DNA from: a bacterium
Lineage (GTDB): Bacteria > Actinomycetota > Acidimicrobiia > Spongiisociales > Spongiisociaceae
Reading direction: 5' to 3'
DNA: 64,000 bases
Assembly (NCBI GenBank): GCA_028821235.1
Contig: JAPPGV010000076.1
Location: 32,657 to 96,656, forward strand
The stretch's first letter is position 1. Every line of letters begins with the position of its first letter. The notes beneath the pieces were generated by a model. The model saw only the letters and a list, made by a program, of their open reading frames with translations, was not told the DNA's origin and made no database searches. Position numbers and translations under genes: made by a program. This document shows positions 16,445 to 43,056 of this stretch, in pieces.

Positions 16445-17005
16445 GTGGTCGGGGTGCTCGCCCTCCAGGGAGACGTCCGCGAGCACGCCCGGATGGTGGC
16501 CGCCTCCGGTGGCGTTCCCCGGGAGATCCGGACGCCCACCGACCTGGAAGGCATCGACGCCCTCATCATCCCGGGAGGAGAGTCGACCACCATCGGGCGG
16601 CTCGCCACCCTCTACGGGCTGGTCGACCCCCTCCGCGGCCGCATCTCGGACGGGCTCCCCACCCTCGGCACCTGCGCCGGGATGATCTTCCTGTCCACAG
16701 CGGTGACCGGGGGAGACCAACCCCTGCTGGGAGCGCTCGACATGATGGTGGAGCGGAACGCCTTCGGCCGCCAGAACGAGTCGTTCGAATGCGAACTCGC
16801 CGTGGAGGGCTGGGAGGATGCGTTCCCTGCGGTCTTCATCCGGGCACCCGTGGTGGACCGGACCGCCCCCGACATCGAGGTGCTGGCCAGCCACGAGGGC
16901 CGGCCCGTGCTGGTGAGAAAGGACCATGTCATGGCGTGCGCCTTCCACCCCGAGCTCACGGGCGACGACCGTGTCCACCGGATGCTCATCGACCTCGTGG
17001 CCTGA
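16445..17005 (+). CDS. pdxT: Pyridoxal 5'-phosphate synthase, glutaminase subunit
   Basis: GVLALQGDV start, catalytic Cys in GTCAG, FHPELT motif. Confidence 0.93.
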   Translation: MVGVLALQGDVREHARMVAASGGVPREIRTPTDLEGIDALIIPGGESTTIGRLATLYGLVDPLRGRISDGLPTLGTCAGMIFLSTAVTGGDQPLLGALDMMVERNAFGRQNESFECELAVEGWEDAFPAVFIRAPVVDRTAPDIEVLASHEGRPVLVRKDHVMACAFHPELTGDDRVHRMLIDLVA

Positions 17006-17010
17006 CGTCG

Positions 17011-17751
17011 ATGGCCGGTCATTCCAAGTGGGCGAACATCAAGCACCGCAAGGGGCGGCAGGACGCCGCCCGTGGCAACCTGTTCGCCAAGCTGTGCCGC
17101 GCCGTGGAGGCCGCGGCTCGTCAGGGTGGGGGCGATCCGGCGGGCAACGCCGTGCTGGCCACCGCCATCGACAAGGCCAGGTCCGCCTCGGTGCCCAAGG
17201 ACAACATCGAACGGGCCATCAAACGCGGCACCGGAGAGCTGGTCGGCGAACGCCTCGACACGTTCTTCTACGAAGGCTACGCGCCAGGGGGAGTGGCGTT
17301 GCTGGTGCAGGCGCTCACCGACAACCGGAACCGGGCCGCCTCCGACATCCGGTCCGCCTTCACCCGGAACGGGGGCAACCTCGGCGAGCCGGGTTCCGTC
17401 GCCTACCTGTTCGACCAGAAGGGTTACCTTCTAGTAGACGGTGATGAAGACGAGATCTTGATGGCTGCCCTGGAGTCAGGCGCCGAGGACGTACGGCAGA
17501 GCGGGGACCAGTTCGAGGTGATCACGGCGCCCACCGACTTCCCGACCGTCCGGGATGCCCTGGCCAGCGCCGAGCTGTCCGTACAGTCCGCCGAGATCAC
17601 CCAGCTCCCGTCCACGACCATCCCACTGGACGCTTCGGGCGCCGCCAGGGTCCTGCGCCTGGTGGACACGCTGGACGACCTGGCCGATGTGCAAGGCGTC
17701 TACGGCAACTTCGACATCCCCGACGACTATCTCGCCACCCTGGCCGAGTAG
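17011..17751 (+). CDS. yebC: YebC/PmpR family DNA-binding regulator
   Basis: MAGHSKWANIKHRKG start. Only the 3' part of ORF 16315-17751 is used. Confidence 0.93.
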   Translation: MAGHSKWANIKHRKGRQDAARGNLFAKLCRAVEAAARQGGGDPAGNAVLATAIDKARSASVPKDNIERAIKRGTGELVGERLDTFFYEGYAPGGVALLVQALTDNRNRAASDIRSAFTRNGGNLGEPGSVAYLFDQKGYLLVDGDEDEILMAALESGAEDVRQSGDQFEVITAPTDFPTVRDALASAELSVQSAEITQLPSTTIPLDASGAARVLRLVDTLDDLADVQGVYGNFDIPDDYLATLAE

Positions 17752-24858: not shown

Positions 24859-25034
24859 GAGTTCCTCGGAAGCGGGTGTTACGAGGACTTGGTCCACGTA
24901 TGCGCTAGTCGGCCGGACGCCTCTCCCGGCTCCCCGCTGATAAACGCTCTCACTCAGTCATTAGCTGTATATGTGTGATAATTTTTCAAGCATCCTTCAT
25001 AGCTTGTCACAGGGTGTTGTTATGCTCATACATT

Positions 25035-26270
25035 ATGTATGAAGTGACAGCTTTCCACGATGCCGACTCGATCCTGGTCGCCGAGAACAACCTCAACGAT
25101 GCCCAGCGGGAGATCGACCGCCTCCGTGGCCGCCAGCTTGCCTGGTTGAAGATGGTGGTTCGCCATCGGGGCATCGTCCGGGACGGGTACCGCTCCCTGA
25201 TCGACTGGACAGCCTCTCGGCTGGACATACCTCATACGGTTGCTCGGGATCTCGCCTATCTGGCCCGGCGGTTGGACGATGACACCATCGACCTCATAGG
25301 GCGAGGGCACCTGCCCTTCGACCGCACCGTCTCCCAGCGGCGGCTCCTCCAAGCCGGAGCCAGCCCCTCCGATGTAGCCGCGTCAGAGGACCTGGACCTG
25401 GCAGGGGTCACGAAGCTGGCCACCAGGTTCCGCAAGCTCAGCAGGGGAGACGAGCGGAGCGCCTTCGAGCGGCAGTATGTCAACCTGCGCGTGTCCGACG
25501 ACGGCGCTGTATGGCACCTGTCGGGCAGGTTCACGGCCACCGACGGACAACTCGTGCGCCACGCCCTGGACCGCCGAGCCGACCAGATCCCACCCCTCAC
25601 CTCCGACTCCGATCCCGAATCTGAGCTGACACCCACTCAGAAACAAGCCATCGGCCTCGTCACCATGGCCCAAGACGACCTGGACCAACACCTCATCCCC
25701 GGCGACCCCGCCGGGCGGGAACCCGTAATCATGCTCATCAAGGACGAAGCCCTCGCCGACCAATCAGACAACACCCAAGGCGTAGAGGTGTTCGGGGGCC
25801 CCCGGGTCGGACCCCAAATCGTCGAGACGGTCGAATGCGAAGGACGCACCGAAGAAGTCACCATCCAGGACAGCCAAGTCGTGGAAATCGGGCCAGTGCA
25901 ACGTCAGGTTCCCAAACGGCTCCGCCGAGCAGTGTTAGCAAGGGACCGGAAGTGTGTGATCGACTCGTGCCGGAGCGGCTACCGGCTCCAAACCCACCAC
26001 ATCATCCCCAGACGCGACGGCGGTCCCGACACGGCCGACAACCTCGCCACCCTCTGCTGGTACCACCACCACATCGCCATCCACCGAAGAGGACACCGCA
26101 TCGACCGCCACACACCACCACACCGCCGCCGGCTCCTTCCACCCCGAACCTGGCCCCACTACCGGCACCCCACCAACGTCGAGTACCTCAGCCCCCACCA
26201 ACAACAACAGCGCGCCTACCAGGCCTTCCTCGACAAATACCACCCCCAACAACCCCACCCCGGCGGATAG
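25035..26270 (+). CDS. HNH endonuclease with DUF222-type N-terminal region (REP13E12-like)
   Basis: HNH motif HHIIPRRDGGPDTADNLATLCWYHHHIAIH. Long helical N-terminal domain. His/Pro/Gln-rich tail. ATG at 25035 follows a strikingly AT-rich leader. Confidence 0.85.
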   Translation: MYEVTAFHDADSILVAENNLNDAQREIDRLRGRQLAWLKMVVRHRGIVRDGYRSLIDWTASRLDIPHTVARDLAYLARRLDDDTIDLIGRGHLPFDRTVSQRRLLQAGASPSDVAASEDLDLAGVTKLATRFRKLSRGDERSAFERQYVNLRVSDDGAVWHLSGRFTATDGQLVRHALDRRADQIPPLTSDSDPESELTPTQKQAIGLVTMAQDDLDQHLIPGDPAGREPVIMLIKDEALADQSDNTQGVEVFGGPRVGPQIVETVECEGRTEEVTIQDSQVVEIGPVQRQVPKRLRRAVLARDRKCVIDSCRSGYRLQTHHIIPRRDGGPDTADNLATLCWYHHHIAIHRRGHRIDRHTPPHRRRLLPPRTWPHYRHPTNVEYLSPHQQQQRAYQAFLDKYHPQQPHPGG

Positions 26271-26921: not shown

Positions 26922-27359
26922 ATGTCCATCCGAAGGTTCACCGAAGTCGAGGCCTACCAGCACGCCGACGACGGCTACTACTACCGGCCGCTGGTCGCCG
27001 GGAAGGAGCTGTTCTCCTACGTGGCCCACGTTCCCGCCGGCGGCTACATGCCACCCGATGCCGAGGAGGCCGAGCTGTTCGAGCTCTCGCTGTTCATGCT
27101 CGAGGGACACCTCGACGGGATCCTCGACGAGGACCGCGTGGCCCTTTCTCCCGGCGATGCGCTCCACATTCCCAGGGGAATGCCCTTCGGAGTAGAGAAC
27201 CGGGGTTCTGCCACGGTCTCGTTCGTGCTCAGCTTCGCACCACCGCCACCCGGAGTAGACCTCGACACCATGAAGCAGTCAGCCATTGACCGCGGCCGGG
27301 TTGTCATCGAAGCCCCCGACGTAGAGGACGTAGTAGGCCCAGTCACCTTCCCGGCGTAG
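26922..27359 (+). CDS. Cupin domain protein
   Basis: Small beta-barrel pattern (LSPGDALHIPRGMPFGVEN.G). Start ambiguous (26886 or 26922). Confidence 0.65.
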   Translation: MSIRRFTEVEAYQHADDGYYYRPLVAGKELFSYVAHVPAGGYMPPDAEEAELFELSLFMLEGHLDGILDEDRVALSPGDALHIPRGMPFGVENRGSATVSFVLSFAPPPPGVDLDTMKQSAIDRGRVVIEAPDVEDVVGPVTFPA

Positions 27360-27408
27360 GCATCAGAGTCTCGGCCGGCGGTTTGGACTCGGCACAACAG
27401 GGGCGTAG

Positions 27409-28467
27409 ATGACTATCTCGGGAATCTGGACGCGAAACGATGAAGGATGGCAACTCAGCCGACCCGAAGGGTTCCCTGACGAGGCGACGCTACACAGGCT
27501 GATCGAAGACACGCCAGAGATGCTGCCCCTGGCCGGCGCGCCGGCACTCTTGGTACTCGGTAGGGAAGTGCCCCTGGGATCGGGCTGCGCGGACCTCGTG
27601 GGGGTCGAGGCGTCGGGCCGGCCGGTCATCATCGAGATCAAGCTGGCGCAGAACAACGAGGCTCGCCGCGCTGTCGTTGCGCAAATCCTTGCCTACGCGG
27701 CCAACCTCCACGGTACGACCCGGGAACAACTGGAGGACCGCTTCAGTTCGGAGTTGAAGCAACGCGGCCACGAGTCCCTTGTGGATGCGATGAGATCGGT
27801 CCAAGAGGAGGCGCTCGACGCCGAGGAGTTCACAACATCTCTCGACGAGCACCTGCAAGAGGGCAGGTTCCGGCTCGTATTCGTACTCGACGACGTGCCG
27901 GCTGAGTTGATGACGCTGGTCGCTTACCTGGAACACGTCACCGACAAGTTAATGATTGACCTAGTCGCCGTTAACTCCTTCGACGTGGACGGCGCTTCCG
28001 TAGTCCTGCCGCAACGGGTAACCCCCGAACGGCACGAAGTAACCGTCAACGAGAAACGCCGCGGCAAGTCCGGCACCCTCTATCGGGGGAGCGAGAGATT
28101 CGAGCAGAGCATCAACCAAGCACCTCCCGAGAGCCACGAGACACTGCACAGGCTCCTCCTGTGGGCTCGGAGTCTCGAAGCGAACGGTTGGATACGACTC
28201 GCTACCTTCGAGGGCAAGGGAGCGAAGCGATTCACCTTGCTCCCACGTCTCGTGGTCGAGAACGTGGGCCTAGTCACGATCTGGAATGAGCGCGGCGCCT
28301 ACCTGGCCTTTTGGCGCAGCGTATTCGAGAAGAAGGCGCCTCAATTCATCGACCCGATCGAGAAACTGCTCGACACCCGCCTCGGCCAGGGCACGACAAC
28401 CCGGAACGTCAACGAGAACCTCCTCGCCACTCTTACGGAGGCATACGAACACGCCGCAGAGACCTGA
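27409..28467 (+). CDS. PD-(D/E)xK nuclease-like protein (NucS/DUF91-like core) with an uncharacterised C-terminal half
   Basis: Core ...CADLVGVEASGRPVIIEIKLAQN...RRAVVAQILAY (D..ExK..Q). Paralogous to the N-terminal ~200 aa of the next gene. Confidence 0.65.
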   Translation: MTISGIWTRNDEGWQLSRPEGFPDEATLHRLIEDTPEMLPLAGAPALLVLGREVPLGSGCADLVGVEASGRPVIIEIKLAQNNEARRAVVAQILAYAANLHGTTREQLEDRFSSELKQRGHESLVDAMRSVQEEALDAEEFTTSLDEHLQEGRFRLVFVLDDVPAELMTLVAYLEHVTDKLMIDLVAVNSFDVDGASVVLPQRVTPERHEVTVNEKRRGKSGTLYRGSERFEQSINQAPPESHETLHRLLLWARSLEANGWIRLATFEGKGAKRFTLLPRLVVENVGLVTIWNERGAYLAFWRSVFEKKAPQFIDPIEKLLDTRLGQGTTTRNVNENLLATLTEAYEHAAET

Positions 28468-28557
28468 ACCTCGGCTTGGCGTGGATGGGCGCGTGTCGGC
28501 GGGGAGTGTGACTGCCGAGTGGTATCAAGTAGGTTCTCGTAGTGGGGAGGACTCGAA

Positions 28558-29657
28558 GTGGCTGTTGAGATGGCGATCTGGAGGATGACTGAGGCAGGGC
28601 CTCGGTACCTGGTGTCATCGCCGCTCGATTCAGAACAGCGTCTCGAGGATATGCTCGCTGAAGATCCCGGCATGTGCGGGATGGATCTGCTTGTCGTCGG
28701 ACGCCAGGTGCGGACCCGATATGGCGGATACATTGATCTCTTGGCCCTGGATGCTGACGGTCGCGCCCATGTCCTCGAGCTAAAGCGTGATCGGACTCCT
28801 CGCGACGTTGTCGCCAGACACTCGACTACGGGTCTTGGGTACAGGATCTAGGCATAGAGGATCTGCAGCAGATCTATCTGGACCACCAAGATGGCGAAAC
28901 CGACCTCGGAGAGGCCTTCGCCGAGCGATTCGACAGCCCGCTTCCGGATGTGGTCAATGCCGATCAGCAGCTCACGATCATCGCGTCCGAACTCGACCAG
29001 ACGTCTGATCGCATTGTCGAGTTCCTCGCAGAGTCGTACGGTGTACCCATCAACGCCGTGTTCTTCCGCCACTTCAGCGACGAGGACCGTGACTACCTCG
29101 CGCGAACGTGGCTACTCGATCCACAGCCGGACGGAGACACGACGCAGCGACCACCGCGGCGAAAGAGCAGGCCATGGAACGGTCGGGACTTCTACTGTGT
29201 CCTCGACCGGGCCGATCAGCCCGAACGCTGGTCATTAGCCAGAAAGTACGGTCTCCTAAGCGCAGGCGGGGGATCGCGCTACTGGAAACCCTTAAGACAC
29301 CTCACACTGGACAAACGCGTGTTCGCATATGTGGGTGGCGCAGGCTATGTCGGCATAGGCCGGGTCATCGGCGAGATGACTCCCGCTCGCGCTGCCGACG
29401 TTGAGATCGACGGACAAAGCCAACCACTCCTCCGTCAACCAGAGCTAAGCGCCGAGAAGTGGAAGAACGCCGACTCGGAGGACCCCGATCTGACGGAGAT
29501 GGTGGTACCGGTCGAGTGGCTGGGCACCCGGCCCATCGAGGACGCGATCTGGCAGAAGGGCCTCTTCGCTTCACAAATCACGGCATGCAAGCTAAAGGAC
29601 GAGAACACGATCAAGACCGTCGAGACCGCATTCGGACTGGACCTCACAGCGGACTGA
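28558..29657 (+). pseudogene. PD-(D/E)xK nuclease-like gene (paralog of 27409-28467), interrupted by a 1-nt frameshift near 28815
   Basis: Frame 1 gives ...YIDLLALDADGRAHVLELKRDRTPRDVVA. Reading continues in another frame as QTLDYGSWVQDLG...; compare VVAQILAY in the paralog. The junction GTCGCCAGACA looks like loss of one C (GCC CAG). Confidence 0.65.
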
Positions 29658-29711
29658 TCGAGCATCCCTCAAGGATCGCCGCCCGGACAAGCGGACCAGG
29701 AGGAAGTACGG

Positions 29712-30514
29712 ATGGATCTAGGAAAGCTAGAGCGCGGGAATGTCAGGGAGGCGTGGCCGCACGAAGCGCATAACTTCACTCCTTGGCTAGCAGAAAACTT
29801 GGACCACCTCTCGGCCGAACTGGGCATCGACGACCTAGAACTTGAGGGCACCGAAGTAAGCGTCGGCCCACATCGTGCCGATATCGTTGCTCGGATACCG
29901 CAGGAAGGCTCCCTCGTACTGATAGAGAATCAGTTAGAGCGTGCCAACCTCCAGCACCTAGGCCAAATGCTCGCATATCTGGCCGGCTTGGAAGCGAAGA
30001 TCGTGGTCTGGGTCGCCGCCGGCTTCGATGAGCCCCATCTGTCGGCTATCCGCTGGCCAACAACCACACTACGGATCCCTTCGCGTTCTTCGCCGTGCGC
30101 GTCAGCGTTGTCCGTATAGGGGATTCGCCGCTCGCCCCTGTCTTTGATGTGATCGAACGTCCCAACGAGTGGGATCGGACCGTTGGGGAGATAACCCCCA
30201 GCGGATCGCTCAGCCCAGTCGGCCAGTTCCGGCGGGACTTTTGGGCGCACTTCGGAAGGGTGCTGCCAGACGCGCCTGGGCCTCGGTCCGGCTATGCAGG
30301 CAGCAACGTCTACCACCTAGTGGAGCCGGCCCACCTGCGCATCAGCCAGTACCTAGCGAGCCTCGCTGACCCCACGAGCGACAGGCCGCTTTCTTGGCTT
30401 ACTGGAGCCGATATAGTGCCTGTGATAGGCACCGCGGCGGCGGCTGATGCAGGAGAGGCGGTGGCCGGGGGCGAAGGGAAAACCGATCTCCTTGGCGGTC
30501 CAAGGGCCATCTAG
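29712..30514 (+). pseudogene. PD-(D/E)xK nuclease + DUF4268-like protein gene, interrupted by a 1-nt frameshift near 30056
   Basis: N-terminal part: HRADIVARIPQEGSLVLIENQLE...HLGQMLAYLAG. After ...SAIRW the reading continues in another frame as ANNHTTDPFAFFAVRVSVVRIGDSPLAPVFDVIERPNEW. Junction TGGCC looks like TGGGCC minus one G. Confidence 0.6.
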
Positions 30515-30555: not shown

Positions 30556-31695
30556 ATGATCGAATGGCTTGGGATTGGCCACCTTTTCGAACTGTCAGGG
30601 TCGGAGGCGGTTTGGGGGTTCCTCACCCCACTGGTGATCTTCGCGGTGTTTTGCCTGGCACAGCTCATATTGCCGGCGAGGCGGGTTCCCGGCTACGTCA
30701 TCAACCCCGAGACCGGGAAGCCTCGTGACTACCGGCTCAACGGTCTCCTGGTATTCGTGATCGCGCAGATCGTGTGGGCTCTGGAACTCACTGGTATGCC
30801 ACATGACTGGTTCTACCGGTCCTCGGTCTATGCCGTGGCGGGAGGAACAGTCCTCACCGCCATCTTCGCGATCATCGCGGTGTTCACCCAGCCGAGAGAC
30901 GAGACCAAGAACACGCTGCTCGAACTCTGGGAAGGGCGGGTCCGGGAGCTGTCGCTCTTCAACAACCGCTTCGACGTGAAGATGTGGTTCTATGTGGTGG
31001 GCGGGACGATGCTGTCGCTCAACGCTCTATCAGGAGCTGTTTACCACTACGAGCGCTTCGGCGAAGACGCCAATCCGGGCGTGTTCTTGTACGCGGGGTT
31101 CTTCACACTCTACGTGCTCGACTATTTCGTATTCGAGCGTGCCCAGCTGTATACCTTCGACCTGATCCACGAGAACCTCGGCTTCAAGCTGTTCTGGGGT
31201 GGGCTCGTCGTCTACGGGTGGCTGTTCATCCTTCCGCTGTGGGGTATGGCTGCGCACCCGGACCCCGGACACTCACCACCATGGAGGTATGTCTGGCTCA
31301 TCGGGGTTCCGGCTCTGTTCCTGGCTGGTTGGTGCATCGAGCGCGGCGCCATCATGCAGAAGTACACATTCAAGCGCTGGCCCGACCGTAAGTTCCTCGG
31401 GCTCATCGAGCCCGAGTACATTGAGGCAGGCGACCGCAAGATTCTGTGCAATGGCCTATGGGGTGTCGCCCGCCACTTCAACTACATGGGCGAAGTGCTG
31501 TACTCCCTGTCAATCTCCTTGACATTCGGGTATCTCACCAATCCCTGGGCCTGGATCTACTTCGCCTTCGGCGTTTCGCTGTTCACCACTCGCCAACGTT
31601 TCGACGAACGGTTCTGTCAGGAGAAGTACGGCGCCGAGAAGTGGGCCGAGTATCAGGCACGGGTCAAGTACCGGATCATCCCCGGGATCTACTGA
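30556..31695 (+). CDS. ERG4/ERG24-type sterol reductase-like integral membrane protein
   Basis: Multi-TM. LWGVARHFNYMGEVL block and C-terminal signature-like TRQRFDERFCQEKYG..W..Y...V.Y.IIPGIY. Confidence 0.7.
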   Translation: MIEWLGIGHLFELSGSEAVWGFLTPLVIFAVFCLAQLILPARRVPGYVINPETGKPRDYRLNGLLVFVIAQIVWALELTGMPHDWFYRSSVYAVAGGTVLTAIFAIIAVFTQPRDETKNTLLELWEGRVRELSLFNNRFDVKMWFYVVGGTMLSLNALSGAVYHYERFGEDANPGVFLYAGFFTLYVLDYFVFERAQLYTFDLIHENLGFKLFWGGLVVYGWLFILPLWGMAAHPDPGHSPPWRYVWLIGVPALFLAGWCIERGAIMQKYTFKRWPDRKFLGLIEPEYIEAGDRKILCNGLWGVARHFNYMGEVLYSLSISLTFGYLTNPWAWIYFAFGVSLFTTRQRFDERFCQEKYGAEKWAEYQARVKYRIIPGIY

Positions 31696-32114: not shown

Positions 32115-33227
32115 ATGCGGCGGTTGTATATTCATGAGCATCGGGACTGGCCCCAACTCCGTTGGGATGCCGACAAGGTGGCGGACAGCCTGGCGGTTGT
32201 CCGCTACAAGCAGGGCCGCTTGGTGGGCCAGATGCAATCGTTGGGGTTCGACCTTCAGCAGGAAGCGATTCTCGAGACTCTGACTCAGGACGTTCACAAG
32301 TCCAGTGACATCGAGGGCGAACGTCTCGACCTAGAACAGGTCCGCTCGTCTGTCGGCCGTCGCCTCGGTTTGGATGTCGGTGGTCTTCCCCACGCGGAGG
32401 ACCGGGTCGAGGGCGTCGTGGAGATGATGCTGGACGCAACCGGCAACTATGGCCGGACATTGACCGTCGAGCAGCTGTGGGGCTGGCAGGCGGCACTCTT
32501 CCCTACCGGGCACAGCCGGATGCGACCGATCACCGTAGGGGGCTGGCGTGACGACCGTACCGGACCCATGCAGGTGATCTCCGGACCCCTCGGCAAGGAA
32601 CGAGTGCATTTCGAAGCGCCCGCGGCGGAGCGGATCGGCAACGAGATGAACGAGTTCCTCAGGTGGTTCAACGAGCCGTCGGACACCGACGGGGTGGTTC
32701 GGGCGGCATTGGCGCATCTATGGTTCGTGACCATCCATCCCTTCGACGACGGCAATGGACGCATCGCCCGGGCGATCAGTGACATGGCCCTAGCCTGTTC
32801 GGAGGACAGCCCCCAGCGTTTCTACAGCATGTCATCGCAGATCCGGCTGGAACGCCGCGGCTACTACCGGATCCTCGAACGAACACAGAAGGGAACACCG
32901 GATGTTTCAGAGTGGATGGAGTGGTTCCTAGGGTGCCTCGGCCGAGCCATCGACGGAGCCGAGACGAACCTGGCATCTGTCCTCACCAAGGCTCGCTTCT
33001 GGCGACAGGTCGAAGGCGTCAGGCTCAATGTGCGCCAGAGGAGGGTTCTCAACCGACTCCTAGACGGGTTCGAGGGCAAGCTGACCACCTCGAAGTGGGC
33101 AAAGCTAGCCAAGTGCTCGCAAGACACCGCTCTGCGGGACATAACTGCCCTGGTAAACGACGGGATTCTCGTCCGAAGTTCGGCCCGGGGTCGCAGCACC
33201 AACTACTCCCTCACCACCCGGCCATAG
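32115..33227 (+). CDS. Fic family protein (class II, DUF4172-type N-terminus, C-terminal wHTH-like region)
   Basis: Catalytic HPFDDGNGRIAR. N-terminal inhibitory-helix motif S-x3-E-G (SSDIEG). N-terminal WPQLRWD pattern. Confidence 0.88.
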   Translation: MRRLYIHEHRDWPQLRWDADKVADSLAVVRYKQGRLVGQMQSLGFDLQQEAILETLTQDVHKSSDIEGERLDLEQVRSSVGRRLGLDVGGLPHAEDRVEGVVEMMLDATGNYGRTLTVEQLWGWQAALFPTGHSRMRPITVGGWRDDRTGPMQVISGPLGKERVHFEAPAAERIGNEMNEFLRWFNEPSDTDGVVRAALAHLWFVTIHPFDDGNGRIARAISDMALACSEDSPQRFYSMSSQIRLERRGYYRILERTQKGTPDVSEWMEWFLGCLGRAIDGAETNLASVLTKARFWRQVEGVRLNVRQRRVLNRLLDGFEGKLTTSKWAKLAKCSQDTALRDITALVNDGILVRSSARGRSTNYSLTTRP

Positions 33228-34136: not shown

Positions 34137-34535
34137 TCAATCGGTGGCGCGTAGGCGGTTCAGCGAACCGGGCCACTCAAGGATGCGGCGGTCGGCGGTT
34201 ACCAACTGGCGACCGCCGAGCGCAGTCGCCACGATGATGCGATCTGCCGGGTCGCCGTGGAAATCCCGCAGAGCCGCAGCGCGGATCCCGATGTCTCCAT
34301 CGACCGGGAGTTCGGCTATGCCTTGGTCGATCTGTTCCCGCCTCCACATCGCAATGTCCTCGGGGAACCTGATCCGGCCCTTCTCCTTCAGCATCGCGAC
34401 CTCCCAGAATGAGATCGCCGAGACGGCCACACCTTCGGAATGCCACGCCAGGTCGATCTCAGATCGCGCATTGCTTCCGAGTTTGGGATCGCCAGACCTC
34501 AGCCAAAGCATCACTTGTGTGTCCAGCAGGATCAC
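34137..34535 (-). CDS. vapC: Type II toxin VapC (PIN domain)
   Basis: MILLDTQV... with the PIN acidic residue pattern. 4-nt overlap with the upstream antitoxin gene. Confidence 0.85.
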   Translation of the reverse strand: MILLDTQVMLWLRSGDPKLGSNARSEIDLAWHSEGVAVSAISFWEVAMLKEKGRIRFPEDIAMWRREQIDQGIAELPVDGDIGIRAAALRDFHGDPADRIIVATALGGRQLVTADRRILEWPGSLNRLRATD

Positions 34536-34816
34536 AGCGGTTCGTCCCAGCTACCGCCTGCTTCAGCTTCCCAATCGACGTCGATGGGATCGCCTATCTC
34601 GCCTACGATCTCGAACCGTCCACGGTCTATCCCGAACAGTGTCTCCGGCATCGTCCGGTGTGGCACGAGCCGTGACACCGGCCGGCCGTGCTTGGTGATG
34701 ACGATCTCCTCGCCGCTCGCTGCTACCTCGTCCATGAGCTTCAGGCACCTGGCCTTGAACTCGGAAGCCTTGATGGTCCGGACGCCTGCAGACTCGGCGT
34801 TGGTGGTTCTTTCCAT
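34532..34816 (-). CDS. Type II antitoxin, Phd/YefM type
   Basis: IKASEFKARCLKLMDEVAASGEEIVITKHGRPVSRLVP is a typical Phd/YefM N-terminus. Overlaps vapC. Confidence 0.8.
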   Translation of the reverse strand: MERTTNAESAGVRTIKASEFKARCLKLMDEVAASGEEIVITKHGRPVSRLVPHRTMPETLFGIDRGRFEIVGEIGDPIDVDWEAEAGGSWDEPL

Positions 34817-38596: not shown

Positions 38597-39772
38597 TCAC
38601 TTAGGGCCGGCGTCATGGAGGCGCGCCCACGGCATGAGTGTCCCGTCCGAGCGGAACTGGAGATCGTCACCCCCGTACACCACCATGATGTCGGATGGGC
38701 GAGGTATGGAGGCCATGTGCCGCTGGACTGTCCTTCCGGCGCCGAAGAAGCTGGAGGACGCCGTGATCCCCGACTTGGCTTCCACGAGGGTGATCCCGTC
38801 CGGACGGTCGATCAGCAGATCGATCTCGACCCCGTTGCGATCCCGATAGAACGAGAGCCCGCCCGGCTCGCCCAGGTTGGCCCGGTGCTTGGCGATCTCG
38901 GAAACGACCCATGTCTCGAATATCGCACCCCGTAGCGGATGGGAACGCAGGTGTTCGGGCGTCCGGATGCCGAGGAGCCAGCAGACCAGGCCCGTGTCGT
39001 AGAAATGCAGTTTGGGCATCTTGACGAGCCGCTTGCGCACGTTCGAGTGGAAGGCTTGAAGCCGGAACACTACGAACCCCGCTTCGAGGACCGACAGCCA
39101 CGCCTTCGCGGTCGGCTGTGATACTCCGCAGTCGCCGGCCAGGGACGAGTAATTGAGCAACTGGGCGGTGCGTCCGGCGCACAGTTGAACGAACCGTTGG
39201 AAGGTGGCGAGATCTCCGATGCTCCTGATGGATCGGACGTCGCGTTCTATGTAGGTCGCGACGTAGGATCGGAGCCAGTCGGACGGGTCGAGGCCGCGGT
39301 CGAATATTCGGGGATAGGAGCCTGCCAGCAGTGACTCCTCAAGACCTGTCGGGTGACGGGGAAAGCGCACGATCTCCCCACGGGTCAGGGTGAACAGATT
39401 GTGGAGGGCTGTCCGACCGGCCAGCGACTGGCTTACCGCCTCCAGCAAAGCGAGATTCTGCGATCCGGTCAGGATCCAGCGTCCGGGCTCCGGATCGTCA
39501 TCGATGAGGCCTTGCAGGTACGACAGGATATGCGGTGCGCGCTGCACCTCGTCGATCACGGCGCCCTCGGATAACCCGGCCAGGAAACCACGAGGATCCG
39601 CTCTAGCGAACGCGTGCGTGTCAGGAGCTTCGAGCGTCACGTAAGCATGATCGGGGAAGAGCGTGCGGCACAGGGTGGTCTTACCGCTCTGGCGCGGTCC
39701 GGTCAGAGTGACGGACGGCATCGTCCGCGCTGCCGCGAGTACCTGCGGCGCCAGGTCCCTGTCGATCAGCAT
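38597..39772 (-). CDS. AAA ATPase (AAA_14 + DUF4143 architecture)
   Basis: Walker A GPRQSGKTT, Walker B-like AVIDEVQ, and a C-terminal DUF4143-like region (FYDTGL...). Confidence 0.8.
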   Translation of the reverse strand: MLIDRDLAPQVLAAARTMPSVTLTGPRQSGKTTLCRTLFPDHAYVTLEAPDTHAFARADPRGFLAGLSEGAVIDEVQRAPHILSYLQGLIDDDPEPGRWILTGSQNLALLEAVSQSLAGRTALHNLFTLTRGEIVRFPRHPTGLEESLLAGSYPRIFDRGLDPSDWLRSYVATYIERDVRSIRSIGDLATFQRFVQLCAGRTAQLLNYSSLAGDCGVSQPTAKAWLSVLEAGFVVFRLQAFHSNVRKRLVKMPKLHFYDTGLVCWLLGIRTPEHLRSHPLRGAIFETWVVSEIAKHRANLGEPGGLSFYRDRNGVEIDLLIDRPDGITLVEAKSGITASSSFFGAGRTVQRHMASIPRPSDIMVVYGGDDLQFRSDGTLMPWARLHDAGPK

Positions 39773-40110: not shown

Positions 40111-43056
40111 GTGGCTAAGGCCGAGCGGGAACTGACCTGGACAACCTCGCCGCCATCTAGGAGAGCGTTGCGTAGGCAAGGCTTCGCCGTGTTCCACTTT
40201 GCCGAGGTGCGGAACAGGCACATCGTACATGCTCGCTCAGCGACGGTCACACGTGACACGCTTGAGAACGCTGCGGCAAGCATCTTGAGATTGATGGACG
40301 GCCACGAGCGCATCGCGATTCTCGGAGTACCCGCTCGAACAAATGGGGACGTCGATGACATCTACTCTTTTCTGGTCGAGCCATCGTTCCGCCGCGACCT
40401 CACGCTACTTCTCGGCGTCGACAGGTCGTTCGACGAACTCGATCCGGTAGAACTCACGACACCGGAAATGGGATATCCATGGAGCCTCGAACGGCTTCAG
40501 TATCTAATGCGGACCTACGCCCGGAACCAGCAAAGCGATGGGATACCGCCCCTCACGCCGATCGAAGCGATCCTGCTCGGTGCTATGCGTAGTCACGGCT
40601 TGACGCCGCAGGCACAGTACGGCATCATCAAGTACCGGGTTGACTTCGCTTTCCCCGCCCAGCATCTAGTCGTCGAATGCGACGGACGCGGATGGCATGA
40701 TGCGGAGCGCGATGCCCGGCGAGACGCGCAACTCGAAGCTCTAGGCTGGAAGACCCTTCGCTTCACAGGCTCGGAGATATACCGCCGGGCGTCTGCAGTC
40801 ACGAAACAGATAGTCTCCGAGCTTGAGACGCGATCACACGTCACGACTTACACAGAACAACCCCGGGAAGCACGTCGCGCCTGGTGGCACCGAATCCTCG
40901 ATTTCTTCCTGGGCCGCCACCAGCCGCAAACCTCACTGCCCCCTCCATCGACACCTGCTTCGGAGCGCAGCGTGCCGGCCTGGAAGGCCCATCTCGACGC
41001 CGACCAGCGCCGCGCGGTTGACGGCCACGAAGGAGTAATACAGGTCATTGCGCCGGCCGGCTCCGGCAAGACCACCACCATGATCGCCCGGGTCCAGGAA
41101 CTCTTCGCGAGGGGGGCACTTGCTAACCGAATCCTGTGCACCACCTTCAACCGAGATACCCGTGTTGACCTAGAGGCTCGCCTTGAGCCGAAGGGTCTCG
41201 CCAATGTCCAAGTGAAGACGTTCCATGCGCTCGGAAGGGCCATCCTCGACCAGGAAGGCCTTCTTCGTTCGGAAATCGGCTCCATCAGTCATGGTCAGTG
41301 GCGTCGGATCGCGAAGCTAGCCAAGGATGCGGTCGAGGATGGTGTCTGGATTGACGCTCCGGTAGCGGCCGAAGTAGTGAGCAATTACAAACTATCTGAA
41401 ATGTGGGACCCGCTGACGGCTCGGCAACGAGCAGCAAACAGCTTCTACAGGACTGCCGCCGAAATCTACACCCTTTATGAGGAGCATCTGGAAGCTGCGG
41501 GACGCAATGACTTCGATGACCTGATATTCCGAGCCGTTGAGCATTTGAAGAGCAATGATGCTGCTAGACGGCGCTGGCAGGATAGATGGGAACACGTGCT
41601 AGTTGACGAGTACCAGGACATTGAGCCAGCGCAGGAGCTACTGATCCGTTTCGTAGCGGCACCGGAGGATTCTCTCTTCACCGTAGGCGACGAGGATCAA
41701 TGCATTTACACATGGCGGCGGGCCAGCGTCGAGCGCATTGTGATGTTGGACACAAAGTACCCGGGTCTTCAGCGCGTCGTGTTGAGCACCTCGTATCGCT
41801 GCCCACCCGTGGTCACCGACGCCGCCCGGAGTCTTATCAGCAACAACAGACGTCGTTTCCCCAAGGAGATTCTACCGAGTCCCAACCGGAAGGGGTTAGG
41901 TGAGATTGAGCTTCGGATTACCGAGAGCCTTGCCGCGGGTGCTCATGAGACCACGACCTTGCTGAAGGAACATGACGGGCCACCCGGCGAGATAGTGGTG
42001 TTGGCGCGCACCAGCCGTTTGCTACGCGCCGTTGTACGCGCATGTGCAGAACAGGGGGTAGCTGTCAATGCGCCACGTCAGTCGCTGCGCCTCACTGATT
42101 CGGAGAAGACCGTGCTCGCCTATCTGCGAGTTGTGTCGTCGCCTAGGAGCGCCCAGGCCGAAGACATCAAACGTTCTTTTCGTGTCCCCAACCGCTACCT
42201 CCGCGACGGCGACCAGCACCGGATTCGGCAAGCTCTCGGCGATCGGCTCTCCTTCGCCGGGGCGGTGGAATCGATCGGCGCTACCGGTTCAGAGGAGTGG
42301 CGCACCAGGGGACAGCGGGAATGGGCACAGCTATGTCAGGAACTCAGGACCGCTGCTGATGCCACCGCCGCCATGAAGCTCCTTCGAACTTCCGGGGGGC
42401 TCGACCGTCACTACATGAGCGTCGACCAGTTGTCCCGCCACGATCAGTACGAGGTAGAAGCGCTAGAGGACATCCAGGACGCAGCAACAGGCCGGAGCCT
42501 GTTCGAGTTGGTCACACACCTCGAAAGCCGCGCGTTGTTGCTAAACCAGGATCGGAACAGCCAAGGAGGCAAGGACGCGATCGAGCTAAACACAATCCAT
42601 CGGGCAAAGGGACGCGAGTGGGACACGGTCATTCTGTTCGGCGCCGACGATGATCAGCTTCCCCACCGTCGAACGGTACTCGAAGCTGAGAGCGAGGAAG
42701 AGTTGGAGGTAGCCATAGAGGACGAGCGACGCCTGGCCTATGTCGCCATCACGCGAACCCGCCACAAGCTCGTGCTTGTCACGACCGGAGTTCCCAGCCC
42801 GTACCTGCGTGAGGCAGGTATCACTCAGTCGGCTGGAGCCCTTCCAACACGCGCCAGCCTCCTTGAGTCGCGTGGATCATCGCATCCCTCGCGGGACTCT
42901 GCCTCACCGACAGTTCAAGCGCAGTATCGCACCATATGCCATAACTGCGGTCGGCCCATCGAGCCCGGAAACCCGATCAGGAGATTTGGTGACGGCTGGG
43001 CACACGACCAGTGTGACCGTCACAGGCCCCGTCTCCGTCACGAAGCTCCGTTCTGA
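40111..43056 (+). CDS. Fusion protein: unknown N-terminal region + DUF559 (Vsr-like) endonuclease domain + UvrD/Rep SF1 helicase + C-terminal Cys/His zinc-ribbon-like motif
   Basis: DUF559: YRVDFAFPAQHLVVECDGRGWH...LGWKTLRF. Helicase motifs APAGSGKTT, VLVDEYQD, GDEDQCIYTWRRA, SYRC, IHRAKGREWD, YVAITRTRHKL. C-terminus: CHNCG...HDQC. The GTG start is uncertain. Confidence 0.85.
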   Translation: MAKAERELTWTTSPPSRRALRRQGFAVFHFAEVRNRHIVHARSATVTRDTLENAAASILRLMDGHERIAILGVPARTNGDVDDIYSFLVEPSFRRDLTLLLGVDRSFDELDPVELTTPEMGYPWSLERLQYLMRTYARNQQSDGIPPLTPIEAILLGAMRSHGLTPQAQYGIIKYRVDFAFPAQHLVVECDGRGWHDAERDARRDAQLEALGWKTLRFTGSEIYRRASAVTKQIVSELETRSHVTTYTEQPREARRAWWHRILDFFLGRHQPQTSLPPPSTPASERSVPAWKAHLDADQRRAVDGHEGVIQVIAPAGSGKTTTMIARVQELFARGALANRILCTTFNRDTRVDLEARLEPKGLANVQVKTFHALGRAILDQEGLLRSEIGSISHGQWRRIAKLAKDAVEDGVWIDAPVAAEVVSNYKLSEMWDPLTARQRAANSFYRTAAEIYTLYEEHLEAAGRNDFDDLIFRAVEHLKSNDAARRRWQDRWEHVLVDEYQDIEPAQELLIRFVAAPEDSLFTVGDEDQCIYTWRRASVERIVMLDTKYPGLQRVVLSTSYRCPPVVTDAARSLISNNRRRFPKEILPSPNRKGLGEIELRITESLAAGAHETTTLLKEHDGPPGEIVVLARTSRLLRAVVRACAEQGVAVNAPRQSLRLTDSEKTVLAYLRVVSSPRSAQAEDIKRSFRVPNRYLRDGDQHRIRQALGDRLSFAGAVESIGATGSEEWRTRGQREWAQLCQELRTAADATAAMKLLRTSGGLDRHYMSVDQLSRHDQYEVEALEDIQDAATGRSLFELVTHLESRALLLNQDRNSQGGKDAIELNTIHRAKGREWDTVILFGADDDQLPHRRTVLEAESEEELEVAIEDERRLAYVAITRTRHKLVLVTTGVPSPYLREAGITQSAGALPTRASLLESRGSSHPSRDSASPTVQAQYRTICHNCGRPIEPGNPIRRFGDGWAHDQCDRHRPRLRHEAPF

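What the first reader, a model, noticed from the sequence alone, without database searches (positions are those of the whole stretch)
27409..30514. Three tandem PD-(D/E)xK nuclease-like genes: shared N-terminal chassis, unrelated C-terminal halves
Three consecutive same-strand genes, separated by short gaps, each carry a restriction-endonuclease-like core. Gene 1 has CADLVGVEASGRPVIIEIKLAQN..VVAQILAY. Gene 2 has YIDLLALDADGRAHVLELKRD..VVAQTLDY. Gene 3 has HRADIVARIPQEGSLVLIENQLE..LGQMLAY, followed by a DUF4268-like part. Genes 1 and 2 are clearly paralogous over about the first 200 aa: a small N-terminal module, the nuclease core, and an acidic helical region ending in a VxFL/VAYL block. After that they diverge completely. 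This modular pattern (a constant nuclease with swapped C-terminal putative sensor domains), in a low-GC stretch that also holds HNH, Fic, EEP and TA genes, fits a diversifying defence-type locus. I cannot assign it to a named system.
Basis: partly seen in the sequence, partly recalled or inferred. Interest (0 to 1): 0.7.

Follow-up and report, generated by a model that had tools for sequence, protein, structure and literature searches.

The report
Tandem modular defence-type nucleases, two decayed
Three neighbouring genes in a sponge-symbiont Acidimicrobiia genome encode stand-alone NucS-like DNA-cutting enzymes that each carry a different C-terminal module, most likely restriction enzymes that attack chemically modified foreign DNA, and only the first gene is intact here.

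Summary
Window 27409-30514 carries three same-strand genes, each with a PD-(D/E)xK core.

- **g1** (352 aa) is intact.
- **g2** has a 1-bp deletion.
- **g3** has a 1-bp deletion and has lost its last ~83 codons.

g1 and g2 are paralogous over about 210 residues (hhalign 97%). g3 shares only the nuclease core. The three C-terminal halves show no mutual similarity:

- g1: an unannotated alpha/beta domain ("g1C").
- g2: a YTH/EVE-like PUA fold.
- g3: DUF4268.

PADLOC places g2 (1e-125) and g3 (3e-74) in its untested single-gene candidate family PDC-S11. g1 matches only through its N-half. None of them is genuine NucS.

The three are not one system. In about 150 related loci each family nearly always stands alone, and the trio recurs only in close relatives. 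Related genomes do carry natural chimeras: the g2 chassis joined to g1C or to DUF4268, and g1C followed by an EVE-like or MGMT-like domain. So module swapping is real.

My best reading is an array of independent Type IV-like (modification-dependent) restriction nucleases in a defence island (SoFic, PDC-S01, toxin-antitoxin pair). This is a new variant of a known kind, of moderate interest.

The parts
27409..28467 (+). g1: intact 352-aa gene. It encodes a NucS-like PD-(D/E)xK nuclease chassis, a linker and an unannotated C-terminal domain.
   Evidence: ORF. There are 868 homologues, mostly ~352 aa, none with a Pfam hit. The AF2 model has mean pLDDT 86. Best PDB fold matches are EndoMS/NucS 5gke and 2vld. 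PADLOC PDC-S11 matches the N-half only, 1e-17.
27409..28023 (+). g1 chassis (aa 1-205): a small N-terminal beta-hairpin, the nuclease core with D62 (27592-27594), E76 and K78 (27634-27642), Q92 and Y96 (27682-27696), a helical insert and the 'RFRLVFVLD...LVAYLE' block.
   Evidence: These columns are invariant in 43 homologues. hhalign to the g2 family gives 97% over 210 columns. Secondary structure is from the model.
28069..28464 (+). g1 C-terminal domain ('g1C', aa 221-352): an alpha/beta domain with no Pfam or PDB assignment.
   Evidence: pLDDT is 85-97. No Pfam hit at E<=1. No PDB sequence hit. No convincing Foldseek PDB hit to this part. A profile search finds it in 643 representative clusters, also duplicated or followed by an EVE-like or PF01035 domain.
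28558..29657 (+). g2: a NucS-like chassis plus a YTH/EVE-like domain, interrupted by one frameshift (pseudogene or assembly error).
   Evidence: The repaired 366-aa protein matches PADLOC PDC-S11 model PDLC04916 at 1e-125 over its full length. It is 93% identical to the intact P0121. NucS_C is weak but hits 43 of 43 family members.
28813..28817 (+). Site of the 1-bp deletion in g2 (GCC-CAG read as GCCAG), inside the conserved 'VVAQTLDY' helix.
   Evidence: DNA alignment to six relatives, all of which have the extra C. Frames shown.
29178..29654 (+). g2 C-terminal PUA-like (YTH/EVE/ASCH-like) domain, aa ~208-366 of the repaired protein.
   Evidence: The AF2 model of orthologue P0121 has pLDDT 80-93 in this part. 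Foldseek PDB matches: Mmi1 YTH (6fpx, 5h8a, prob 0.99), EVE proteins 2eve, 2g2x and 2ar1 (prob 0.95-0.97), and YTHDF3.
29712..30361 (+). g3: remnant of a ~300-aa PD-(D/E)xK + DUF4268 gene. It is frameshifted and truncated at the 3' end. Core residues are D57 (29880-29882), E72 (29925-29927) and Q74 (29931-29933).
   Evidence: PADLOC PDC-S11 model PDLC04911 at 3e-74, covering only profile positions 4-191 of 318. Relatives are ~300 aa and align to the first 81% only. 17 of 40 relatives hit PF14088 DUF4268. Invariant residues.
30056..30058 (+). Site of the 1-bp deletion in g3 (TGGCTCAAC read as TGGCC-AAC).
   Evidence: DNA alignment to four relatives. tblastn splits the match into two frames at 30056/30059.
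30357..30514 (+). Breakpoint and unrelated tail. Homology of g3 to all relatives stops at 30357-30361, and the ORF then runs on to a stop at 30514.
   Evidence: blastn and tblastn end points. Alignment. The next gene (ERG4/ERG24-like, 30556-31695) is absent from the relatives' loci.
32115..33227 (+). Context: a Fic protein that matches the SoFic defence model.
   Evidence: PADLOC SoFic 1e-38. Pfam DUF4172 + Fic.
34137..34816 (-). Context: a PIN toxin and PhdYeFM antitoxin pair.
   Evidence: Pfam annotations of the called genes in L001 at 16729-17408, which equal window coordinates after adding 17408.
38597..39772 (-). Context: an AAA_14 + DUF4143 ATPase, PADLOC candidate PDC-S01.
   Evidence: PADLOC 5e-101. 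Pfam.

Best explanation
The locus is a tandem array of three independent, single-polypeptide nucleases built on a NucS/DUF91-like PD-(D/E)xK core. Each has a different C-terminal nucleic-acid 'reader' module:
- g1: an uncharacterised alpha/beta domain (g1C).
- g2: a YTH/EVE-like PUA domain.
- g3: DUF4268.

The array sits in a low-G+C defence island of a sponge-associated Acidimicrobiia genome.

**Likely mechanism (inferred, not shown).** The C-terminal module recognises a modified base or another non-self feature of incoming phage or plasmid DNA. This positions the N-terminal nuclease (D...ExK/Q plus QxxxY) to cut nearby. Host DNA lacks the mark, so it is spared, and no partner methyltransferase is needed. 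That is Type IV-like, modification-dependent restriction.

The paralogues diversify by recombination at the flexible linker, which swaps reader modules between chassis. They are gained, lost and inactivated quickly. In this genome only g1 is intact. g2 carries a frameshift, and g3 carries a frameshift and has lost its 3' end.

**What is shown:** the gene anatomy, the paralogy, the fold assignments, the family membership, the stand-alone distribution and the natural chimeras.

**What is inferred:** defence function, dependence on modification, and the role of g1C.
For: **Nuclease**
- Catalytic motifs are invariant in all three families.
- Best PDB fold matches of the g1 and g2 models are EndoMS/NucS.
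- NucS_C hits 43 of 43 g2 relatives.

**Readers**
- The g2 C-domain matches YTH and EVE structures with probability 0.95-0.99.
- EVE/PUA-nuclease fusions are established modification-dependent enzymes (PMC6765204, PMC7897488).
- DUF4268 is found in 17 of 40 g3 relatives.
- DUF4268 is fused to GmrSD Type IV enzymes (PMC4619093).
- DUF4268 occurs in MdgA and MdgB. Both protect against T4 but not T4-GT7, and both lose defence when a predicted catalytic residue is changed to alanine. Only MdgA was purified and shown to cut modified DNA; its E77A mutant is inactive (PMC12366544).
- g1C occurs in other proteins followed by an EVE-like domain (P0419) or by PF01035 DNA_binding_1 (P0432, P0395). PF01035 is also a GmrSD accessory domain.

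**Interchangeability**
- Intact chimeras exist: g2N+g1C in L051, L068 and L156, and g2N+DUF4268 in L050. The junctions lie at the low-pLDDT linker.

**Defence context**
- PADLOC PDC-S11 hits.
- In the window: SoFic, PDC-S01, PIN/Phd, a REase-UvrD helicase and an HNH protein.
- Relatives lie next to CBASS (L007), type I RM (L005), an integrase, Fic and EEP (L002), a reverse transcriptase, SIR2, an SMC-like ATPase and a radical-SAM gene (L087), and GmrSD (L051).
- The g2 and g3 families occur on plasmids of bacteria and haloarchaea.
- No methyltransferase lies within +/-10 kb.

**Independent units**
- Of 79 g2-centred genome loci, g1 or g3 is adjacent only when g2 is at least 84% identical to the window copy.
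- Of 78 g1-centred metagenome loci, one (L152) has a separate g2-like gene.
- Four of four g1 relatives at 67-72% identity stand alone.
Against: - No experiment bears on these proteins. PDC-S11 is an untested candidate found by guilt-by-embedding.
- The YTH/EVE assignment rests on Foldseek E of about 1e-2 and target-normalised TM of 0.33-0.45, on a model with pLDDT 78. No Pfam EVE or YTH hit was found.
- g1C has no recognisable fold match, so its reader role rests only on domain-neighbour reasoning.
- YTH and EVE domains also read RNA, so the target could be RNA.
- Some g3 relatives sit among housekeeping genes (L088).
- The two frameshifts could be assembly errors. The only other record of this contig is the same assembly deposited twice.
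Confidence: 0.6

Rival explanations
1. The three genes form one multi-component system, for example a hetero-oligomeric nuclease complex whose subunits supply different sensors and need each other.
For: They are adjacent, on the same strand, with short gaps. The order g1-g2(-g3) is kept in L006, L007, L008, L009, L010, L012 and L034. NucS-type nucleases are dimers (established knowledge), so paralogues could in principle heterodimerise.
Against: - All syntenic cases are close relatives, with g2 at least 84% identical.
- In every g2 locus at 80% identity or less (about 70 loci) neither g1 nor g3 lies within 10 kb.
- g1 relatives stand alone in 4 of 4 genome loci and in about 75 of 78 metagenome loci.
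- g3 relatives stand alone.
- L007, L008 and L034 lack g3.
- A DUF3800 gene is inserted between g1 and g2 in L006.
- PADLOC models PDC-S11 as a set of alternative HMMs under one protein name.
Confidence: 0.07
2. They are defence or stress nucleases triggered by something other than base modification. Possible triggers are free DNA ends (as in Shedu SduA), a phage protein, or RNA. On this reading the C-domains are regulatory or oligomerisation modules, and the outcome may be abortive infection.
For: - The g2 model also aligns to Shedu SduA 8ps5 (181 columns, E 0.035) and to Hachiman HamA.
- g1C has no fold assignment.
- g1C can precede a separate reader domain (P0419, P0432), so it may be an adaptor rather than a reader.
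- YTH and EVE domains are classically RNA binders (PMC6765204).
Against: - No PADLOC Shedu or Hachiman model hit at E<=1.
- The modules that replace each other on the same chassis (EVE-like, DUF4268, with PF01035 downstream of g1C) are those associated with modified-base recognition and Type IV enzymes.
Confidence: 0.2
3. They are housekeeping DNA-repair nucleases of the NucS/EndoMS mismatch-repair type. Some database records name g2 relatives 'endonuclease NucS'.
For: Weak NucS_C and NucS equivalog hits. Best fold matches are EndoMS/NucS. Source names read 'endonuclease NucS' or 'DUF91'.
Against: - Scores are 25-36 bits against curated cut-offs of 216-252.
- The match covers only the nuclease half, NucS positions ~129-201.
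- The nuclease starts at residue ~25, so there is no NucS N-terminal DNA-binding domain.
- The C-termini are unrelated domains.
- Distribution is patchy, in islands and on plasmids. Copies are multiple, frameshifted or chimeric.
Confidence: 0.03
4. g2 and g3 are intact in the organism, and the frameshifts are metagenome-assembly errors. On this reading the locus holds two or three working genes.
For: Both frameshifts are single-base deletions in an otherwise well-conserved sequence. The g2 deletion lies in a CCC run. No independent assembly of the strain is available.
Against: - The g3 3' truncation is a loss of homology over 150 bp or more, not a base-calling slip.
- Other long ORFs around the locus are uninterrupted.
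- Related MAGs also carry broken copies: g1 in L009, g2 in L041 and L049. This fits rapid decay.
Confidence: 0.3

Closest known systems
PADLOC phage defence candidate PDC-S11 (Payne et al. 2024 preprint, 10.1101/2024.01.29.577857; models PDLC04909-04916)
   Same: g2 matches PDLC04916 end to end (1e-125). g3 matches PDLC04911, 04912 and 04914 (3e-74 to 2e-52). Like PDC-S11, the genes are single-gene units in defence contexts.
   Different: PDC-S11 is untested and has no described mechanism. g1 matches only through the shared N-half (profile positions 6-193 of 358, 1e-17), and its C-domain is outside all eight models. The window copies of g2 and g3 are broken.
Modification-dependent (Type IV) restriction endonucleases made of a PUA-superfamily reader fused to a nuclease (for example the EVE-HNH enzymes VcaM4I/TspA15I, SRA-HNH enzymes, YenY4I)
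   Same: g2 is a one-polypeptide fusion of a YTH/EVE-like domain with a nuclease and has no adjacent methyltransferase.
   Different: The nuclease is NucS-like PD-(D/E)xK rather than HNH. PUA + PD-(D/E)xK fusions were reported as rare (PMC6765204). Activity is untested.
MdgA / MdgB, DUF4268-containing antiphage nucleases (Cell Host Microbe 2025, PMC12366544)
   Same: g3 relatives combine a nuclease core that has an invariant catalytic Glu (E72) with DUF4268. MdgB is reported as restricted to Actinomycetota and Acidobacteriota, and the window is from Actinomycetota.
   Different: The window g3 lacks the distal half of DUF4268.
NucS / EndoMS mismatch endonuclease
   Same: The fold and motif set of the nuclease domain (D, ExK, QxxxY) are the same. 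NucS/EndoMS structures are the best PDB matches.
   Different: There is no NucS N-terminal domain. Scores are far below the equivalog cut-offs. The C-terminal domains are different. The genes have an island and plasmid distribution.
GmrSD-family Type IV enzymes with accessory DUF4268 or DNA_binding_1 domains (PMC4619093)
   Same: The same accessory domains occur here: DUF4268 in g3, and PF01035 downstream of g1C in P0432 and P0395. A GmrSD gene lies next to the chimeric gene in L051.
   Different: The catalytic and NTPase parts (DUF262, DUF1524) are absent. The nuclease is PD-(D/E)xK.
Bacillus phage G gp54 (JN638751 36933-37823)
   Same: It is the best BFVD structural match of the whole g1 model (299 columns, E 2e-8). 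It carries the same D...EIK...Q..Y motif and a weak NucS_C hit.
   Different: Its function is unknown. No sequence-profile similarity to g1 or g3 was detectable. It is phage-encoded.

Membership tests
NucS/EndoMS (housekeeping mismatch endonuclease) | Whole-protein match to the NucS equivalog models above the curated cut-off | tested here: not met
   NF003270 scores 24.8 bits (g1) and 35.7 bits (g2) against a cut-off of 216. NF002876 scores 18.1 against 252. g3 has no hit.
NucS/EndoMS (housekeeping mismatch endonuclease) | N-terminal NucS DNA-binding domain ahead of the nuclease domain | tested here: not met
   Matches cover only NucS positions ~129-201 and begin at residue ~25 of g1 and g2. 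Only Pfam NucS_C is hit.
NucS/EndoMS (housekeeping mismatch endonuclease) | PD-(D/E)xK core with D, ExK and QxxxY motifs | tested here: met
   g1 has D62, E76, K78, Q92 and Y96. g2 has D60, E74, K76, Q87 and Y91. These residues are invariant or nearly invariant.
NucS/EndoMS (housekeeping mismatch endonuclease) | C-terminal sliding-clamp (PCNA/beta) binding motif | not tested
   The C-termini are separate globular domains. No motif search was done.
PADLOC PDC-S11 candidate | Full-length match to one of the PDC-S11 HMMs | tested here: met
   g2 covers 1-361 of its 366 residues against profile positions 1-356 of 358, E 1e-125. g3 covers its retained part (profile 4-191 of 318), E 3e-74. g1 matches only in part (profile 6-193 of 358, E 1e-17).
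PADLOC PDC-S11 candidate | Acts as a single-gene unit (the eight PDC-S11 HMMs all carry one protein name; the preprint describes single- and multi-gene candidates) | tested here: met
   The g2, g1 and g3 families stand alone in the great majority of ~160 loci. How PADLOC itself defines the system was not read.
PADLOC PDC-S11 candidate | Demonstrated antiphage activity | not testable with these tools
   The PDC systems are described as 145 untested candidates. A 2026 preprint that mentions PDC-S11 could not be opened.
Type IV modification-dependent restriction endonuclease (reader + nuclease fusion) | Nuclease domain with intact catalytic residues | tested here: met
   In the window, only g1 is uninterrupted.
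Type IV modification-dependent restriction endonuclease (reader + nuclease fusion) | Domain of a known modified-base reader class (PUA superfamily SRA/EVE/YTH, DUF4268, and similar) | tested here: inconclusive
   - g2: Foldseek matches YTH and EVE with probability 0.95-0.99 but E of about 1e-2, and no Pfam hit.
- g3 family: DUF4268 in 17 of 40 members.
- g1: C-domain unassigned.
Type IV modification-dependent restriction endonuclease (reader + nuclease fusion) | No cognate methyltransferase required or adjacent | tested here: met
   No methyltransferase domain is found among the genes called within +/-10 kb.
Type IV modification-dependent restriction endonuclease (reader + nuclease fusion) | Cleavage depends on a DNA modification | not testable with these tools
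   This needs biochemistry or phage assays.
MdgA/MdgB DUF4268 nucleases | DUF4268 domain joined to a nuclease with an essential catalytic residue | tested here: met
   In the g3 family, DUF4268 is found in 17 of 40 members and D57, E72 and Q74 are invariant. The window copy keeps only aa ~160-217 of the domain.
MdgA/MdgB DUF4268 nucleases | Sequence homology to MdgA or MdgB | not testable with these tools
   No supplementary sequences are held.
Shedu (SduA, DUF4263) | Match to Shedu models | tested here: not met
   No Shedu model appears among the PADLOC hits at E<=1. There is only a weak structural alignment to 8ps5, E 0.035.
Cas4 | Match to Cas4 models above threshold | tested here: not met
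   TIGR00372 scores 16.7 bits against a cut-off of 65. PADLOC Cas4 models give E of about 1e-3 on about 50 residues only.

The most novel reading that the evidence does not exclude
The g1 C-terminal domain would be a previously undescribed sensor of modified or foreign DNA, functionally interchangeable with EVE-like and DUF4268 modules on one nuclease chassis. It has no Pfam, PDB or PADLOC assignment and occurs in 643 representative clusters. On this reading, recombination at the linker between tandem paralogues is a natural cassette-swapping mechanism that retargets these restriction nucleases. That would give a ready-made set of chassis and reader pairs for finding new modification readers.
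Probability: 0.3. Interest if true: 0.6.

Novelty: new variant of a known kind. Interest (0 to 1): 0.42.

Why it matters
If the reading is right, the locus and its relatives form a natural experiment in module swapping. One NucS-like nuclease chassis is found with at least five C-terminal arrangements:
- EVE/YTH-like;
- DUF4268;
- g1C;
- g1C duplicated;
- g1C followed by an EVE-like or MGMT-like domain.

This would help assign a function to DUF4268 and to the unannotated g1C domain. It would give mechanistic content to an untested PADLOC candidate (PDC-S11). It would also point to new readers of DNA modifications, which are useful for epigenetic mapping. For the genome itself the result is ordinary: a decaying patch of a defence island in a sponge symbiont.

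Tried and rejected
- **Pfam and NCBIfam on the window proteins.** These gave only sub-threshold NucS_C, NucS and Cas4 hits. Housekeeping NucS and Cas4 were rejected on score and architecture.
- **hhalign between the three C-terminal halves, and of g2N against g3N.** No signal.
- **PDB sequence-profile searches with the g2, g3 and g1C alignments.** Only NucS was found for g2, and nothing usable for g3 or g1C.
- **Foldseek PDB with the whole g1 model.** No convincing match to the C-domain.
- **hhalign of phage G gp54 against the g1 and g3 profiles.** No signal.
- **Viral contigs.** g1 family absent, g2 family in only 3 contigs. A phage origin was therefore not pursued.
- **Promoter, terminator and repeat scans of 26.8-31 kb.** Nothing above chance.
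- **tRNA scan.** None found, so no obvious integration site.
- **Programmed frameshifting in g2 or g3.** Rejected: both are plain 1-bp deletions relative to all relatives, and g3 is also truncated.
- **MdgA/MdgB sequences.** No supplements are held.
- **The 2026 H-NS preprint that mentions PDC-S11.** It could not be opened.
- **Independent confirmation of the frameshifts.** The only other record is the same assembly in NCBI.

Full report
**Source and anatomy**

The window is scaffold_231 (140.7 kb) of a sponge-metagenome assembly (ROBB21-1, SAMN13943213; also in NCBI with locus tags OXK16_...). The nearest homologues come from Acidimicrobiia MAGs such as Candidatus Spongiisocius.

- **g1** (27409-28467) is an intact 352-aa ORF.
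- **g2** (28558-29657) reads through once a single missing C at 28813-28817 is restored. Six related loci all carry the extra base. The repaired 366-aa protein is 93% identical to an intact homologue.
- **g3** starts at 29712 and has a 1-bp deletion at ~30057. All similarity to its ~300-aa relatives ends at 30357-30361. About 83 C-terminal residues are therefore missing, and the ORF tail to 30514 is unrelated sequence.

G+C is 0.59-0.65 across 20-36 kb against 0.67-0.72 in the flanks.

**Relationship of the three proteins**

All three carry a PD-(D/E)xK core on family-invariant residues:
- g1: D62, E76, K78, Q92, Y96.
- g2: D60, E74, K76, Q87, Y91.
- g3: D57, E72, Q74, Q85, Y89, so Q replaces K.

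g1 and g2 are paralogues. BLASTP finds 29% identity over 105 residues. Profile-profile comparison aligns 210 columns at 97% probability, E 1e-11.

g3 is linked to g1 only through the core (66-76% probability). It is not linked to g2 by hhalign. One PADLOC model (PDLC04913) touches all three.

The C-terminal halves show no mutual similarity.

**What the domains are**

AlphaFold models were built from 43-sequence alignments: g1 with pLDDT 86, and g2 orthologue P0121 with pLDDT 78. Each has two globular parts joined by a low-confidence linker, at g1 207-220 and g2 191-207.

Both N-terminal parts match EndoMS/NucS best in the PDB. The proteins are nevertheless not NucS:
- NCBIfam equivalog scores are 25-36 bits against cut-offs of 216-252.
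- The match covers only the nuclease half.
- There is no NucS N-domain.

The three C-terminal parts differ:
- **g2:** matches YTH domains (Mmi1, YTHDF3) and EVE proteins (2eve, 2g2x, 2ar1) at probability 0.95-0.99. This is a PUA-like modified-base reader fold.
- **g3:** relatives hit Pfam DUF4268 in 17 of 40 cases.
- **g1** (aa 221-352): predicted with confidence but has no Pfam, PDB-sequence or convincing PDB-fold match. The best structural analogue of the whole g1 model is Bacillus phage G gp54, another NucS-like two-domain protein of unknown function.

**Family assignment**

PADLOC places g2 (1e-125, full length) and g3 (3e-74, retained part) in PDC-S11. g1 matches only through its N-half (1e-17). 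PDC systems are 145 untested candidates found by 'guilt by embedding' in BREX, DISARM and type I RM loci.

**Literature on the readers**
- DUF4268 is an accessory domain of GmrSD Type IV enzymes.
- DUF4268 is present in MdgA and MdgB. These single-gene nucleases protect against T4 but not T4-GT7, and both lose defence when a predicted catalytic residue is changed to alanine. Purified MdgA cuts modified DNA, and its E77A mutant is inactive.
- PUA-superfamily/nuclease fusions are a recognised class of modification-dependent restriction enzymes.

**One system or three?**

I collected three sets of related loci:
- 79 genome loci centred on g2 relatives;
- 78 metagenome loci centred on g1 relatives;
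- several individual contexts.

The order g1-g2(-g3) recurs only where g2 is at least 84% identical to the window copy: L006, L007, L008, L009, L010, L012 and L034. Even there the locus varies: g3 is missing in three, a DUF3800 gene is inserted in L006, and there are extra fragments and a frameshifted g1 in L009.

In every more distant locus the families stand alone, with one exception (L152). So the trio is synteny by descent within a narrow clade, not an obligate system.

The g2 and g3 families also occur singly on plasmids of bacteria and haloarchaea. There they are annotated 'endonuclease NucS domain-containing', 'DUF91' or 'DUF4268 domain-containing'.

**Module swapping**

The g2-centred set revealed intact chimeric ORFs:
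- L051, L068 and L156 encode the g2 chassis (83% identical) joined to g1C (73% identical).
- L050 encodes the g2 chassis (87% identical) joined to the DUF4268 half of g3 (71% identical).

In all of them the junction falls in the linker.

A profile search with g1C alone found 643 representative clusters. Most have the g1 architecture. Others have two g1C domains in tandem (P0378), g1C followed by the g2-type EVE-like domain (P0419), or g1C followed by PF01035 DNA_binding_1 (P0432, P0395).

The modules exchanged are those tied to recognition of modified bases.

**Context**

Around the locus in the window lie:
- an HNH protein;
- a Fic protein that matches the SoFic defence model (1e-38);
- an EEP nuclease/phosphatase;
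- a PIN/Phd pair;
- a PDC-S01 ATPase;
- a REase_MTES_1575/DUF559-UvrD helicase.

Relatives lie next to CBASS, type I RM, integrases, a reverse transcriptase with SIR2 and an SMC-like ATPase, a radical-SAM gene with a kinase, and GmrSD. No methyltransferase is near the window locus.

**Conclusion**

The best-supported reading (confidence about 0.6) is a tandem array of independent, Type IV-like restriction nucleases of the PDC-S11 type. They diversify by swapping reader modules and decay quickly. Here only g1 is intact.

- **Shown:** the anatomy, the paralogy, the fold and family assignments, the stand-alone distribution and the chimeras.
- **Inferred:** defence function, dependence on modification, and the role of g1C.
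- **Rivals:** a trigger other than modification (0.2); a joint three-gene system (0.07); housekeeping NucS (0.03). Separately, the frameshifts may be assembly errors (0.3).

It is a new variant of a known kind. The g2 and g3 families are already catalogued as candidates. The g1C domain and the documented natural chimeras are the new elements.

Noticed in passing
window 32115-33227 (+): A Fic-domain protein (DUF4172 + Fic) matches the PADLOC SoFic defence model at 1e-38 over nearly its full length.
   Followed up: partly
window 38597-39772 (-): An AAA_14 + DUF4143 ATPase matches PADLOC candidate PDC-S01 at 5e-101. It lies in a second low-G+C patch (39-43 kb).
   Followed up: partly
window 40111-43056 (+): A 981-aa protein has an N-terminal REase_MTES_1575/DUF559 nuclease domain fused to a UvrD-type helicase. 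Its GajB-like PADLOC hits are generic to the helicase.
   Followed up: partly
window 30556-31695 (+): An ERG4/ERG24 sterol-reductase-like / DUF1295 membrane protein sits directly after the breakpoint that truncates g3. It is absent from the syntenic loci of relatives.
   Followed up: no
L031 5096-6001, 10001-11089, 15169-16068; L028 10001-11089, 16876-17964: Other Acidimicrobiales genomes carry two or three g2-family paralogues (62-70% identical to the window copy) spaced about 5-7 kb apart, so clustering of these nucleases recurs.
   Followed up: no
L009 8797-9833 and 11157-11378; L006 13416-13604 and 9132-9193; L010 15614-15781: Relatives show further decay and rearrangement: g1 is frameshifted in L009, a g3 5' fragment is duplicated there, and short extra copies of g2 segments lie a few kb away in L006 and L010.
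   Followed up: partly
window 27181-27365; L008 2305-2487; L034 4731-4914; L007 11007-11176: About 185 bp at the 3' end of the cupin gene upstream of g1 occurs a second time in three related loci: upstream in L008 and L034, and downstream of g2 in L007. This could be a paralogous cupin gene or a recombination scar.
   Followed up: no
L173 16934-17824 (Bacillus phage G gp54, JN638751 36933-37823): This jumbo-phage protein of unknown function is the best BFVD structural match to the whole g1 model (E 2e-8, 299 columns). It carries the same D...EIK...Q..Y motif.
   Followed up: partly
L051 11509-12219 and 12676-14508 (-): The chimeric g2N+g1C gene is followed by a DUF3800 gene and a GmrSD-family Type IV restriction gene. 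A DUF3800 gene is also inserted between g1 and g2 in L006.
   Followed up: partly
window 24975-26270 (+): The HNH protein has a long proline-rich C-terminal tail (…HTPPHRRRLLPPRTWPHYRHP…). Another HNH protein lies in the same island of the related locus L006, 5.9 kb upstream of g1.
   Followed up: no
L090-L092 (IMG/VR contigs): Three viral contigs encode full-length g2-family proteins (40-42% identity). The g1 family was not found in viral contigs.
   Followed up: no
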